Shown in pieces: positions 7,077 through 51,085 of a DNA stretch of 64,000 nt (positions are counted from its first letter, which is position 1; every line of letters starts with the position of its first letter). The notes below the pieces were generated by a model. The model did no database searches. It was not told the DNA's origin and saw nothing but the letters and a program-made list of their open reading frames with translations. This DNA is from Octopus vulgaris (lineage: Eukaryota), in NCBI GenBank assembly GCA_951406725.2, contig OX597820.1, forward strand, positions 56,482,001 to 56,546,000, given 5' to 3'. The position numbers and the translations under genes were made by a program.

Positions 7077-7118
7077 CACTACGTTTCGGCTGTTGTACAC
7101 TCCAGTCTTCTTCAGGTG
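7077..7118 (-). ncRNA. Minimal type-I hammerhead ribozyme motif
   Basis: CAC-CUGAAGA-A-GACUG(loop)CAGCC-GAAA-C-GUA-GUG: intact core, stem I CAC/GUG, stem II with one mismatch, palindromic ACGU stem III. Confidence 0.65.
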
Positions 7119-7181
7119 TCTTGTGATTCACCTTAATACCTTGACTGGGATTGAACTCAGAACATCTAGGTGACTGCATTG

Positions 7182-7222
7182 CATTTGAAGAAGGCTGGAT
7201 CGTACACAGCCGAAATGTAATG
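7182..7222 (+). ncRNA. Degenerate minimal hammerhead motif
   Basis: CAU-UUGAAGA-A-GGCUG(loop)CAGCC-GAAA-U-GUA-AUG; C3U core change, stem I CAU/AUG. Confidence 0.5.
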
Positions 7223-7761
7223 AAAATAACATCACTCCAACTATTATATAATATAAAAATCTCAGAAAATACAGAATTGTATTATTCAGTTGGTACGGAG
7301 CCGACATAAGATATCAATGGGGGTTTATAAGCCTTAAAATTTAAACTTTTGAAATCTTTTTCGATAATTTTAGCTAATCGGAAGCCTCCGTTATCAACAT
7401 AGCGGAAGTCACACCTGATGTCTGTTTCCACAGCAGCGAGTAAACTAGGACTTGAATTGGTTGAAACATGAAATTAGAAAAATATTTCATGCCTTAAAGT
7501 TATGTAACTTTATTTATTATTAATTTCTGCCAAAAATGAATCTGATTTTATAATTATCATACAAAACTACATCAATGTAGAAAACTTGAAGGAAATCGAA
7601 TTCAGCAAGAAAATCGCCCCACCAAAACCAAGCCGAACCAAACCAAACCAAACGAAACTGAACCTAACCGAACCGAACCAAAAAACCCCCCCCGAAAACC
7701 TAAATACTCATGATATGCAATTGAATTTAAAGTCAACTTATAATTACAGACAAAATCATCA

Positions 7762-8572
7762 GTATTCTTTTATTCTTTTATTTGCTTCAGTCATTTGCTG
7801 GAGCACCGCCTTTAGTCGAGCATATCGACCCCAGGCAGCGAGCTGGCAGAAACGTTAGCACGCCGGGCGAAATGCCTAGTGGTATTTCGTCTGCCGTTAC
7901 GTTCTGAGTTCAAATTTCGCCGAGGTCGACTTTGCCTTTCATCCTTTCGGGGTCGATAAATTAAGTACCAGTTACGCACTGGGGTCGATGTAATCGACTT
8001 AATACCTATGTCTGTCCTTATTTGTCCCCTCTGTGTTTAGCCCCTTGTGGGTAATAAAGAAATAGGCATTTCGTCTGCCGTTACGTTGTGAGTTCAAATT
8101 AAGCCGAGGTCGACTTTGCCTTTCATCCTTTCGGGGTCGATTAAATAAGTACCAATTAATCACTGGGGTCGATGTAATCGACTTAATCCCCTTGTCTGTC
8201 CCTCTATGTTTAGCCCCCTGTGGGCAATAAAGAAATGTAAAAAATCGACCCCAGGACTTATTCTTTGTAAGCCTAGTACTTATTCTATCGGTCTCTTTGG
8301 TCGAACTGCTAAGTTACAGGGACGTAAACACACCAGCATCGGTTGTGAAGCGATGTTGGCGGGGGTGGGGGGACAAACACAAACACACAAACATATATAC
8401 ATTATATATATACGACGGACTTCTTTTAGTTTCCGTCTACCAAATCACAAGGCTTTGGTCAGCCCGAGGCTATAGTAGAAGACACTTGCTCAAGGTGCCA
8501 CGCAGTGGGACTGAAGACGTAGCCATGTGGTTGGTAAGCAAGCTACTTACCACACAGCCATTCCTGCGCCTA
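7762..8572 (-). mobile_element. SINE family B interrupted by a family A dimer
   Basis: Reverse complement of the family B consensus on both sides of 7834-8237. Confidence 0.85.
7834..8237 (+). mobile_element. SINE family A with a tandemly duplicated 184-bp body
   Basis: GGCAGCGAGCTGGCAGAAACG head; GTCGAC at 7925 and 8109; ATCGACCCCAGG repeated on both sides (TSD-like). Confidence 0.9.
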
Positions 8573-8849
8573 CATGAAAACATTTTGAGTTTTATTTTGT
8601 ACTGCATATTTCCATAAGTTTATTTTAGTCGTAATATTTCTTGATGAATCAGTCAATGAATGAACGTTATAGGTACATTGCTTCAAAATATGATATATAA
8701 GCTTGAAATCTTACGTGTTCCCCCGTCATTGCTGTTGCGCAATAGGTATATACACTCCTGATGAACGTCTCTAAAAAAATAGAAAAGGTCCACTCAGAGG
8801 AAAACACCATCTATAGCATGTTCATGTAATGGCTAGTCATACAGTAAGC

Positions 8850-47926: not shown

Positions 47927-48382
47927 TTATACGGTAATATTTGGTACTGTGATATATTGTTACACACACATCATATATCGTCACTGGTGATATAACAATG
48001 TTCTGTATGAATTGCTCCACCATGTATAAACCTGATGTAGCCGAGTCCTGCTGGTAGTCTGTGAATTTGTTTTACTCACGCGTTGTGACGTAATAATGCT
48101 TTAAAATAACAAAAGCAAAATCGTAAGATTTCGAAGAATATAGTCGATTATACGATCCTAGTACTAGAAATTGTATTTCTTTTTCTCCTCATCTCCGGAA
48201 GAATGAAAGGAAATATTATCCTCCACTGGATTTGAACCAAGAATATGAATATCCGTAACTAAGTAACGCAAGAAATTTTTCCCTGCGGTCTAATGTGTCT
48301 GTTATCCACTACCCGCAGGGCAATATATATATAAGGGTTCATTCACGTTCGGTCAATTTCATCATCATCATCATCATCATCA

Positions 48383-48795
48383 AGGCGGCGAGCTGTCAGA
48401 ATCCATAGTACTCCAAGCGAAATGTTTAGCGGCACTTCGCCCGTCTTCGTGTTCTAAGGTCAAATTCTGCAGAGGTCGACTTTGCCTTTCATCCTTTCGG
48501 GGTCGATGTAATCGACTCATCCCCCACCACAAAATTGCTGTCCCTGTGGTAAAATTCGAAACCGTTGTTTTTATTATTAAGGCGGCGAGCTGGCACAGTC
48601 GTTACCACGCAGGGCAAAATGTTTAGCGGCATTTCGTCCGTCTTCATGTTCTGAGTTCAAATTCCGCTGAGATCGACTTAGCCCTTCATCCTTTCGGGAT
48701 TGATAAATTAAGTACCATCAAGCACTGGGATAGTAATAATCGGCTAGTTCCCTCCCCTCAAATTTCAGGCCTTGTGCCTATAGTAGAAGCGATTA
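48383..48795 (+). mobile_element. Two adjacent SINE family A copies (short-tail type)
   Basis: AAGGCGGCGAGCTG heads at ~48383 and ~48580; a third copy at 49240-49435. Confidence 0.85.
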
Positions 48796-48810
48796 TTGTT
48801 ATTATTATCA

Positions 48811-49225
48811 TTGAGAGAGCAGTGGATGCCATCAAAGTGACACTGGGGTAAAATATACGAAGGCCAGTATACCCATCATGACTACCCGTCTGATAAGGGT
48901 ACACCTGGCACATGCATTACAACCATATGTATGCGACATTGTGATCTCATATCATAATAAACAGCGCATGACTTTGCTGGTGGGTCCCAGTTAGAATTTT
49001 CTTCAGGTTGAGGAATCCATCCCCGAATAAGTGTTGTTTAAGGATGATGGACAAAACACCCATGTTTCCAAAGGTGAATTATCCAAACCCCAAAGAATTC
49101 CTTTCAACACATGGTTATGATGTTCCCCGACTATTTCTGCTCGTGATCAGAGATGCACATATCGTCAGCCACTAAGGAACATGTTCAACTGGTTAAGGTC
49201 AAGCAACTGACAAGCAAATCTGTGA
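48811..49225 (-). mobile_element. Family D element
   Basis: TTGAGAGAGCAGTGGATGCCATC...CAAGCAAATCTGTG, flanked by short (TTA)n. Confidence 0.85.
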
Positions 49226-50274
49226 TATTATTATTATTAAGCGTGCTGGTAGAAACGTTAGCACACCGGGCAAAATGCTTCGTCTGTCTTTACGTTCTGA
49301 GTTCAAATTCCGCCGAGGTTGACTTTGCCTTTCATCCTTTCGGTGTCGATGATTTAATTACCAGTTGCGTACCGGAGTCGATCTAATCAACTGACCCCTT
49401 CTTCCAAAGGTTCAGGCTTATGACTAGAGTAGAATATATTATTATTATTATTATTAAAGCGGCAAGTATTAAAGGATTATTATTATTATTATTGAATCAT
49501 GGCAGGGATAGAATCAGTTAGAAGATAGTTGTAGCGTATATGCTTCTGTTACGCCTTTATCAAAGCACACCGACTGACCAGTGAGGCGGCAGACTTACCA
49601 TATATTTAAATATCAAGGCATTGTGTAGATTACTCTGATAAGCAGCGGACTTAATGCATTAAATTATAATATTTAATTTAGACGCATTCAGTATGAACGC
49701 TCTTGTCTTTCTACCCTCTGTAGGAAATGCAAATAATGTACCAGTAATATGTTAGTAATCTATTCTATCGATTATAGTTATTCCTCAATAAATTTGCTAA
49801 TGTAAGAAGCTATTATTTATTCACGCAGACTAGAGTTATTGTATGGTATTATTTTCGTTATCTCTTATGTAATACTGTAGATATGGAAGATAAATCTGTT
49901 TTGACATTAAACGTAGACGTAACATATCAATCTTTAACGCCTGGTCTACTTCGGATTAGGTCGAAGTAGATTGTAAAATAAAACCAAACAAACTGGAATT
50001 ATTTATCTTCTTTCTTCTATTCTATAGTCGTCATCTTATCGTCCGCATGTAGTAAATTAACAATTCACAGCGTGGAAAAATTTGGTTTTTGGATTTACAG
50101 CAAGAAAAAAAATTTAATTACGAGCTCGAGGATTTATTCATGTGTTAAGTATTCAAAATCGTTGATAAAAATATAATTAGAAATAATTTATTCAAAATAT
50201 ATAGTAGCTTTTACATATATATATATATATATATATATATATATATATATATATATATATATATATATAATATA

Positions 50275-51085
50275 TATAAAAATAAGAATAAAGTATTCTC
50301 CATGAAAGTTAATTTGATACACAAACTGTATCCATATAACTACGAACAAGTCTCACACTCTTGAAGCTACAGACGGTTTAAATGAGAAGTGTCGCTTCGA
50401 CAATCTTTGTTCGAAGGTTCCCGGTGGAATACATCCACTTGTTTCAATAATAGAAATATTAAAATTACTAAGTCTCTCTAAAAGAGAACAACCAGGTCGA
50501 AAATAATAGGCATTATGGCATTCTTATAAAAATAAGAATAAAGCTGTCCGCTTATTAGCTCCATGAGGCCATCGCCTTAAGTTAGCTATTGTTCGAAGGT
50601 TATATGGATACAGTTTGTGTATCAAATAGCTAACTTAAGGCGATGGCCTCATGGAGCTAATAAGCGGACAGCTTTATTCTTATTTTTATAAGAATGCCAT
50701 ATTAGTATGGCGATAACTATTGATTTTCCGGGAACGCTGCCGTTGTTCTCTTTTAGAGAGACTTAGTAATTTTAATATTTCTATTATTGAAAACAAGTGG
50801 ATGTATTCCACCGAAGCTAGGTAAATAAAACCTTCGAACAGAGATTGTCAGAAGCGACACCTACTGGTCTGGCTACGCTGCATTGAAAAGGGGCAATACC
50901 CCGAAACGCGTCTGTAGCTGCCGGTCAAGTAGTGTGGAGCGACTGACCTCCATTGTTCGAAGGTTATATGGATACAGTTTGTGTATCAAATAGCTAACTT
51001 AAGGTGATGGCCTCATGGAGCTAATAAGCGGACAGCTTTATTCTTATTTTTATAAGAATGCCATATTAGTATGGCGATAACTATT
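50275..51085 (+). mobile_element. Retrozyme-like locus: 364-nt unit with 134-nt direct repeats plus an inverted, deletion-riddled copy
   Basis: 50588-50721 equals 50952-51085 with 1 mismatch; 50515-50590 is a perfect inverted repeat of 50625-50700; bounded by (TA)n. Confidence 0.75.
50877..50918 (+). ncRNA. Type-I hammerhead ribozyme motif, U3-A8 core variant
   Basis: GCUGCA-UUGAAAA-GGGG(CAAUA)CCCC-GAAA-CGC-GUC-UGUAGC: 6-bp stem I, 4-bp stem II, palindromic ACGCGU stem III, GUC cleavage triplet. Confidence 0.72.

What the first reader, a model, noticed from the sequence alone, without database searches (positions are those of the whole stretch)
7077..50918. About seven dispersed minimal hammerhead motifs from several unrelated short element families
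Seen: CUGANGA-stem II-GAAA-short palindrome-NUH motifs with closing stem I at 7077(-), 12180(-), 33572(-) and 50877(+), and degenerate ones at 7182(+), 16288(-) and 19204(-). GAAA-only halves occur near 20090(-), 34100(-) and 51300(-). Stems differ in sequence but keep pairing, and stem III is palindromic in the best cases (ACGU, AACGUU, AGCGCU, ACGCGU). Most abut (TA)n/(CA)n. Established: Penelope-like LTRs carry such minimal hammerheads, which are thought to cleave as dimers. Inference: roughly one motif per 10 kb here would imply a very large, diverse ribozyme-bearing retroelement population seeded in microsatellites.
Basis: partly seen in the sequence, partly recalled or inferred. Interest (0 to 1): 0.7.

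Follow-up and report, generated by a model that had tools for sequence, protein, structure and literature searches.

The report
Hammerhead remnants of Penelope jumping genes
These motifs are mostly leftover tail ends of several Penelope-like jumping genes, plus one small tandem repeat, each carrying a hammerhead-shaped RNA predicted to cut itself only in pairs; this is a known arrangement, except that one family with about 15,000 exact copies has a core change predicted to weaken cutting.

Summary
The motifs are real and far above chance: 3 full motifs in the window against a shuffle mean of 0.19; genome-wide 21,754 canonical-core matches against 1,136 for the reversed control. Only 3 of the 7 cited sites pass a full descriptor, and 2 of the 3 GAAA halves belong to families without a core. 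Five families (7077/7182, 12180, 16288, 33572, 19204) are 3' ends of GIY-YIG Penelope-like elements; 50877 is a 363-nt tandem retrozyme with a U3-A8 core. Related copies occur about once per 15 kb, intact motifs about once per 60-70 kb. (TA)n adjacency holds for families B and D, not A. The unusual part: the 16288 family has CUGUNGA (A6U) in 14,944 exact copies versus 158 canonical, with all four bases at N7, and it occurs in endonuclease-coding copies; I did not find natural A6U in seven literature searches. Cleavage is untested. Notes of this scan describe similar Penelope hammerheads elsewhere in this genome and an altered-core family in another genome.

The parts
7077..7118 (-). Family A' minimal type-I hammerhead: stem I CAC/GUG, CUGAAGA, extra A, stem II with one mismatch, GAAA, ACGU palindrome, A17. 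Sits behind a tRNA-like B-box-type sequence (box motif recalled)
   Evidence: 14 of 20 registered relatives keep CUGANGA; element extent 6985-7231
7182..7222 (+). Decayed inverted copy of the same insertion (UUGAAGA, AUGU)
   Evidence: hairpin-type matches over 7068-7231
12180..12214 (-). Family B1 minimal hammerhead: GUUU/AAAU, CUGACGA, extra A, GAGC/GCUC, GAAA, ACGU, U17; element about 12140-12283 between microsatellites
   Evidence: sister subfamily has CCGACGA (U4C), 8 of 39 B copies in 1 Mb
16289..16324 (-). Family B2 hammerhead with A6U core CUGUAGA; element about 16191-16396 ending in (TA)n
   Evidence: endonuclease ORF upstream in L221, L322, L317
19201..19269 (-). Family E hammerhead: CUGAAGA, long imperfect stem II, ACGAUCGU palindrome, A17; young family (best relatives 96-98% identical), element about 19034-19317
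   Evidence: GIY-YIG-like frame upstream in 1 of 14 loci (L172; motif recalled, no Pfam hit)
20089..20121 (-). Family F copy that lacks the core and 5' arm of stem II (internal deletion inferred from relatives)
25718..28682 (-). 5'-truncated Penelope-like element with inverted 236-nt terminal repeats; GIY-YIG frame 26100-26468(-) and inverted partial copy 28079-28315(+).
   Evidence: (Pfam GIY-YIG E=0.00098, below curated cut-off)
25731..25771 (-). Decayed family P hammerhead in the terminal repeat; relatives carry UUGACAA (U3-A8), 6-bp stem I, AUAU palindrome
   Evidence: UUGACAA in 10 of 24 relatives, UCGACAA 3, other 4, none found 7
28629..28669 (+). Inverted copy of the family P motif
33572..33611 (-). 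Family C hammerhead: CUGAUGA, 6-bp stem II, AGCGCU palindrome, A17, stem I with a U.U mismatch; 3' end of an RT + GIY-YIG element, extent about 33371-34000
   Evidence: endonuclease upstream on the same strand in 4 of 14 loci
34080..34150 (-). Family G short (TA)n-flanked repeat with stem-loop, GAAA and a closing stem but no CUGANGA; not counted as a hammerhead
50877..50918 (+). Family D hammerhead: 6-bp stem I extended through an internal loop, UUGAAAA (U3-A8), GGGG/CCCC stem II, ACGCGU palindrome, C17; part of a 362-364-nt tandem unit, forward part about 50590-51090 with a diverged inverted 5' piece about 50280-50590, flanked by (TA)n
51190..51420 (.). Family H foldback insertion; GAAA present, no core at the expected place in relatives; not counted as a hammerhead

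Best explanation
The motifs are type-I hammerhead-shaped sequences in the 3' terminal repeats of several GIY-YIG Penelope-like retrotransposon families and in one 363-nt tandem repeat, likely left one per insertion when reverse transcription stopped early, and predicted to cut only when two copies pair through their palindromic stem III. Shown: motif anatomy, family membership, endonuclease frames upstream on the same strand, 5'-truncated and inverted copies, tandem units of D, (TA)n adjacency of B and D. Inferred: the parent tandem or partial-tandem RNA is cut by double hammerheads; the Penelope RT/endonuclease reinserts it by target-primed reverse transcription; most B copies keep only the last ~210 nt; endonucleases with the CX2-5CxxC linker (seen in B and C) favour (TA)n while family A, whose endonuclease lacks it, does not; D has no frame of its own and is moved in trans; isolated genomic copies are mostly inert. 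The A6U core of B2 is most likely a weakened but still constrained ribozyme (about 45%), versus substrate-only or dead.
For: Excess over shuffles in window, in 1 Mb and genome-wide. RT + endonuclease then motif on one strand in L208 (family C) and L206 (B1, 3.4 kb apart across CA-rich sequence). Endonuclease upstream for B2 (L221, L322 in partial tandem, L317), A (L298, L286; Atlas GIY-YIG clusters at 0.97), P (motif 290-350 nt after the matched frame in the relatives where found), E (L172). Extra nucleotide between 9 and 10.1, palindromic stem III and opposite-strand pairs match the published description (PMC4209133). Stems covary between relatives: CUUU/AAAG versus GUUU/AAAC, GCUGCA versus GUUACA against UGUAGC in D. 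For D the two-copy minimum-energy fold is the double hammerhead, and the circular monomer folds 6.3 SD below 100 shuffles; 8 of 30 D loci hold 2-4 motifs 362-364 nt apart.
Against: No cleavage evidence: no copies start at the predicted cut site in the 1 Mb sample plus window (B2 0 of 27, B1 0 of 21, A 0 of 17, D 0 of 7). For B1, B2, C and E the two-copy minimum-energy folds were not the double hammerhead. No Rfam hammerhead match. Pfam scores for several endonuclease frames are under the curated cut-off or absent. No coding partner was found for A' (19 relative loci), D, F, G or H; A' is tied to Penelope only through family A. The P element in the window is not next to (TA)n although its frame has a CxxC. 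Clade names rest on linker motifs, not on an RT tree.
Confidence: 0.82

Rival explanations
1. Chance matches in AT-rich, repeat-rich DNA.
For: With one core mismatch the window gives 8 hits against a shuffle mean of 3.05 (2 of 60 shuffles reach 8), and 5 of the 8 are not cited sites; families G and H have GAAA without a core.
Against: Palindromic full motifs: 3 versus max 1 in 150 shuffles; 21,754 versus 1,136; cores conserved in relatives.
Confidence: 0.03
2. The ribozymes are mostly dead passengers: the elements spread regardless of cleavage, and A6U and U4C are fixed loss-of-function changes.
For: The largest family counted has A6U; A6C is reported to cut poorly in Mg2+ and U4C to lower activity (PMC3088659; PMC7151607); G amplified without a core (4 copies per Mb); Naiads reportedly proliferate without canonical hammerheads (PMC8557442); no cut-site pile-up.
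Against: In 52 B2 copies not chosen by their core, N7 (15 of 52) and N17 (10 of 52) vary, while C3, U4, G5, U6, G8, A9, G12, A13, A14, A15.1 differ in 0-3 copies each; N7 groups differ at 2-15 of about 74 downstream positions. This pattern is what a constrained hammerhead would show, but loop II is also nearly invariant and few founder events are involved.
Confidence: 0.35
3. B2 RNA is only a substrate: it is cut in trans in heterodimers by A6-core relatives (B1 or minor B2 subfamilies), which share the ACGU palindrome.
For: B1 and B2 share stem II and ACGU; A6 copies exist in the B2 context (158 versus 45 for G6), some in older sublineages.
Against: The enzyme half of B2 (C3-G8 pair, stem II) looks conserved across N7 groups, which a substrate would not need.
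Confidence: 0.15
4. The short copies are independent non-autonomous elements (SINE- or retrozyme-like) with their own transcription, not truncated ends.
For: B copies pile up at a 5' boundary about 85-100 nt before G12; A and A' carry a tRNA-like head; D is a true tandem unit.
Against: The same sequences continue into endonuclease frames in longer copies; ARAGORN finds no tRNA in 7 loci. True for D, possible for part of A and B.
Confidence: 0.25

Closest known systems
Minimal type-I hammerheads (min-HHR) of metazoan Penelope-like elements (Cervera and De la Pena 2014, PMC4209133; abstract, parts 1-2 of 4 and passages of supplement file 2 read; supplement file 1 not searchable)
   Same: Short stem I, extra nucleotide between 9 and 10.1, G10.1-C11.1 in most families, palindromic stem III, several families per genome, mostly single dispersed copies, opposite-strand pairs, a U3-A8 variant; the paper reports low activity of dimers and none of monomers.
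   Different: Counts here are higher than the 2,000-9,000 per genome quoted there (21,754 for the ACGU class alone); A6U and U4C families are not in the text or passages I saw, and a CUGANGA descriptor would miss them.
Metazoan non-LTR retrozymes (Cervera and De la Pena 2020, PMC7229834, passages; Li et al. bioRxiv 10.64898/2026.07.22.740005, part 1 of 5 and passages)
   Same: Family D: 362-364-nt tandem units, 41% GC, one type-I hammerhead per unit, no coding frame, strong fold; mussel units are about 350-390 bp.
   Different: U3-A8 core; inserted in (TA)n with Penelope-type 5' inversions; circular RNA not shown here.
Neptune/Nematis-type and Penelope/Poseidon-type EN+ elements (Craig et al. 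2021, PMC8557442, passages and two supplement rows)
   Same: C-terminal GIY-YIG after RT, pseudo-LTRs, partial tandems, inverted truncated copies; CX2-5CxxC linker in B and C with (TA)n adjacency, absent in A with no adjacency, as hypothesised there.
   Different: No RT phylogeny was built; A has a tRNA-like head in its terminal repeat.
Natural hammerhead core variants (Perreault et al. 2011, PMC3088659, section 8 and passages; PMC7151607, passages)
   Same: U3-A8 (active), U4C (viroid, reduced activity) and a position-6 change (A6C, phage, low in Mg2+, rescued by Mn2+) are known.
   Different: A6U was not in the passages seen; here it is the majority state of a high-copy animal retroelement family, not a single isolate.

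Membership tests
Type-I minimal hammerhead of PLEs | CUGANGA (or U3-A8) core and GAAA | tested here: met
   Window 7115, 12210, 19266, 33606 canonical, 50883 U3-A8; relatives of A', C, E, D, P. Not met for B2 (A6U), G, H.
Type-I minimal hammerhead of PLEs | Stems I and II close; palindromic 15.1-16.1 segment; NUH site | tested here: met
   3 of 7 cited window copies pass in full; C and E imperfect family-wide
Type-I minimal hammerhead of PLEs | Unpaired nucleotide between 9 and 10.1 | tested here: met
   A, B1, B2, P; absent in D
Type-I minimal hammerhead of PLEs | Self-cleavage as a dimer | not testable with these tools
   Only folding and an indirect 5'-end test without pile-up
Rfam hammerhead families | Covariance-model match | tested here: not met
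   (150 of 247 rows shown)
EN+ Penelope-like elements | RT followed by C-terminal GIY-YIG upstream of the terminal repeat | tested here: met
   C: L208, L209; B1: L206; endonuclease only for A, B2, E, P
EN+ Penelope-like elements | Partial tandems and inverted 5'-truncated copies | tested here: met
   Window 25718-28682 and 6985-7231; L322; 12 of 30 D loci hold motifs on both strands
Neptune/Nematis clade (B, C) | CX2-5CxxC linker before GIY-YIG | tested here: met
   CSHPRCRTC in L221, CGDKSCRRC in L155
Neptune/Nematis clade (B, C) | Placement on an RT tree | not tested
   No reference RT set was available from tools
Non-LTR retrozyme (D) | Tandem 150-450-bp units each with a type-I hammerhead, non-coding, GC under 50% | tested here: met
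Non-LTR retrozyme (D) | Expressed as linear and circular monomer RNA | not testable with these tools
   Only contigs of runs not on record as RNA were listed
tRNA-derived SINE (A, A') | tRNA-like A and B boxes at the 5' end, no coding partner in cis | tested here: inconclusive
   Box-like motifs seen (motifs recalled), ARAGORN 0 of 7 loci; the head follows an endonuclease frame in L298 and L286, so it is part of a terminal repeat

The most novel reading that the evidence does not exclude
A Penelope lineage has run on a natural A6U hammerhead: the CUGUNGA core persisted through at least four N7 subfamilies of coding elements and over 15,000 insertions because it still cuts in cells, through dimer geometry, another metal or the element's own protein, making it an attenuated-by-design ribozyme that standard descriptors miss in animal genomes.
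Probability: 0.3. Interest if true: 0.7.

Novelty: new variant of a known kind. Interest (0 to 1): 0.45.

Why it matters
What hammerheads do for Penelope elements is open (PMC8557442 says they may simply parasitise them). This genome offers sister lineages with canonical (B1), U4C (B1 subfamily) and A6U (B2) cores on the same stem II and palindrome, each amplified to high copy, so one set of cleavage assays would show whether cutting is needed for spread. It also shows that CUGANGA-only counts miss about half of the core-bearing copies here (12 canonical versus 32 variant cores in 1 Mb). The basic observation, dispersed minimal hammerheads from Penelope ends, is already described.

Tried and rejected
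Rfam: no hammerhead match. Cut-site pile-up of 5' ends: none. Endonuclease retention looked higher in A6 than U6 copies (3 of 12 versus 1 of 49, p=0.02) but vanished with equally chosen loci (3 of 12 versus 3 of 40), so I dropped it. Tree of 76 B copies on flanks only (149 columns, 13 of 73 branches well supported; 7 of every 8 search-derived CUGUAGA rows and microsatellite-containing rows left out) needs 14-15 changes at position 6 and cannot give the number of origins of A6U. The identical hammerhead majority lines are circular, because those loci were picked by the exact pattern; only their flank differences count. An HMM from family P endonucleases missed the other clades. Idea that 12210's CUGACGA is a CpG-decay accident of CCGACGA: rejected, it falls with a CUGACGA subgroup. 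The other 33 CUGANGA sites of the window showed no hammerhead family among held loci. Sequencing runs: no RNA holder listed; contigs of four coded runs from four other organisms cover the B2 motif with no alternative letter listed at position 6, but none was listed at N7 either, so it is not used as evidence. ARAGORN negative. Look-ups of earlier findings by sequence were blank. Genome-wide exact counts for U4C and D were not made. Organism: 2.8 Gb, 227 contigs; octopus-like by recall of its repeats, not determined by any search; used only as a search word.
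Full report
Observation. All cited places hold the described pieces. A type-I descriptor passes three: 7077-7118(-), 12180-12214(-) and 50877-50918(+), all with palindromic stem III; 150 shuffles in 200-nt blocks gave mean 0.19 and never 3. The other cited motifs fail for stated reasons: 33572 has a U.U mismatch in stem I, 19204 an imperfect stem II, 16288 the core CUGUAGA, 7182 a U3.G8 mismatch and AUGU. 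Rfam has no matching hammerhead model.

Density. The window is G000:C7:56482001-56546000 of a 2.8-Gb genome. I fetched 100 evenly placed 10-kb stretches from 23 contigs. There the descriptor finds 11 canonical motifs (8 shuffles: 0-2), 7 U3-A8 palindromic motifs (0-2) and 41 with one core mismatch (4-11); a looser joint setting gave 20 versus mean 5.5. By homology the window's families have 67 copies in that 1 Mb after dropping 7 partial or low-complexity rows: B 39, A 14, D 5, G 4, F 3, E 1, P 1; cores are CUGANGA 12, A6U 16, U4C 11, U3-A8 5, no core 14, GAAA broken 9. Genome-wide, CUGANGA-N9-30-YGAAACGU has 21,754 matches against 1,136 for the reversed pattern. So remnants occur about once per 15 kb and intact motifs about once per 60-70 kb; the window, with 10 family-supported sites in 64 kb, is about twice the average.

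Families. A/A' (7077, 7182): one foldback insertion, 6985-7231. Relatives carry a tRNA-like head before the motif; in 2 of 20 fetched A loci an endonuclease frame precedes the head on the same strand (L298, L286), which the Atlas places with GIY-YIG clusters at 0.97 though Pfam gave no hit. B1 (12180) and B2 (16288) share stem II and ACGU, with stem I covarying; typical copies span about -95 to +110 around G12; longer ones run into a GIY-YIG frame with a CX4CxxC linker. C (33572): 11 of 14 relatives keep CUGANGA; 4 of 14 have the endonuclease upstream, and L208 shows RT, endonuclease and motif in order. E (19204): young family, 16 of 16 true matches CUGAAGA, endonuclease-like frame upstream in 1 of 14 loci. 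D (50877): 362-364-nt units, 53 of 53 motifs UUGAAAA in query-ranked loci, tandem in 8 and two-stranded in 12 of 30 loci (two pairs of loci overlap), no own frame, double-hammerhead minimum-energy dimer, circular fold z = -6.3. F (20090): deleted copy of a core-bearing family. G (34100) and H (51300): no core in relatives. P: a Penelope element with inverted repeats at 25718-28682 whose relatives carry a U3-A8 motif after the endonuclease; both window copies are decayed.

Microsatellites. (TA)4 lies within 260 nt downstream for B1 15 of 17, B2 17 of 19, D 4 of 5, A 1 of 13, F 1 of 3, G 1 of 3, against 0.21 of random positions (7 doubtful rows and copies near stretch ends left out). This follows the endonuclease type: the Zn-linker is present in B and C and absent in A, in line with the hypothesis stated in PMC8557442. 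The window's P element is an exception.

The A6U family. In an otherwise fixed 30-nt context, position 6 is U in 14,944 places, A in 158 and G in 45; all four bases occur at N7 among the first 100 listed. In 52 copies not chosen by core, U6 is invariant, N7 varies in 15 and N17 in 10, other core positions in 0-3. N7 groups differ at 2-15 of about 74 downstream positions. Some A6 copies look like point mutants of the main subfamily, others belong to older sublineages; the tree cannot count origins. U6 copies carry endonuclease frames as often as can be told (3 of 40 versus 3 of 12). Published natural variants include U3-A8, U4C and A6C; seven searches and the passages read showed no natural A6U family and no survey of this genome's hammerheads; the giant squid paper lists 235 Rfam hammerhead matches. 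The library lacks most subscription papers.

Mechanism. Shown: structure, collinearity with Penelope frames, truncation, inversion, tandem units, target bias. Inferred from PMC4209133 and PMC7229834: cutting needs two motifs paired at stem III, so precursor tandems are processed while single copies are inert; the RT/endonuclease reinserts the RNA and usually finishes only the last few hundred bases. Against a simple reading: no copy starts at the cut site in the sample, and two-copy folds of B, C and E do not favour the double hammerhead. No RNA data could be used.

Earlier notes of this scan describe a tRNA-headed Penelope terminal repeat, variant-core retrozymes and rewired Naiad hammerheads elsewhere in this genome, and an altered-core Penelope family in another genome. 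I tested the first and found endonuclease frames ahead of the A head; the rest I did not test.

Verdict. The distinctive element is the dominance of variant cores, above all A6U. Interest 0.45; new variant of a known kind.

Noticed in passing
window 2284-2480 (-): U2 snRNA match above the Rfam gathering score (62.3 bits) with several broken pairs; likely a retrocopy or pseudogene.
   Followed up: no
window 15165-15536 (+): 123-aa frame that resembles a mariner transposase C-terminus (motif recalled; no relevant Pfam hit).
   Followed up: partly
window 52432-52890 (+): 152-aa frame that resembles the end of an RTE-type LINE reverse transcriptase (recalled; no relevant Pfam hit).
   Followed up: partly
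window 15731-15808: A B2 3' fragment that starts about 10 nt after the predicted cut site, behind (CA)n.
   Followed up: partly
window 32556-33165 and 7881-8209: 3.3 tandem copies of a 184-bp SINE-like unit, with an inverted relative at 7881-8209; a similar element interrupts the Penelope copy near 26490-26720.
   Followed up: no
window 63101-63427 (+): Open frame ending in a (GCA)45 glutamine run; could be an exon or just a microsatellite.
   Followed up: no
window 7000-7070 (-); A loci: A and A' share a 3' hairpin after the hammerhead (11-bp arms in the window copy), kept although the loop differs.
   Followed up: no
L001-L020, L051-L150 (B copies): B1 and B2 5' ends cluster 85-100 nt before G12, far from the cut site; a strong stop or an RNA start there is unexplained.
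   Followed up: partly
L022-L050 (D copies): D has two preferred 3' ends, about +184 and +247 from G12, both running into (TA)n.
   Followed up: no
L206:6817-8637: A D copy abuts, in opposite orientation across (TA)n, the truncated 5' end of a B1-type RT + endonuclease element.
   Followed up: partly
L071, L098, L106, L062, L080, L147, L137: Seven canonical motifs of families absent from the window, most with hairpin stem III.
   Followed up: no
window 34080-34150; L081, L093, L105, L133, L307, L319: Family G keeps hammerhead-like stems and GAAA but no core, and still reached about 4 copies per Mb.
   Followed up: partly
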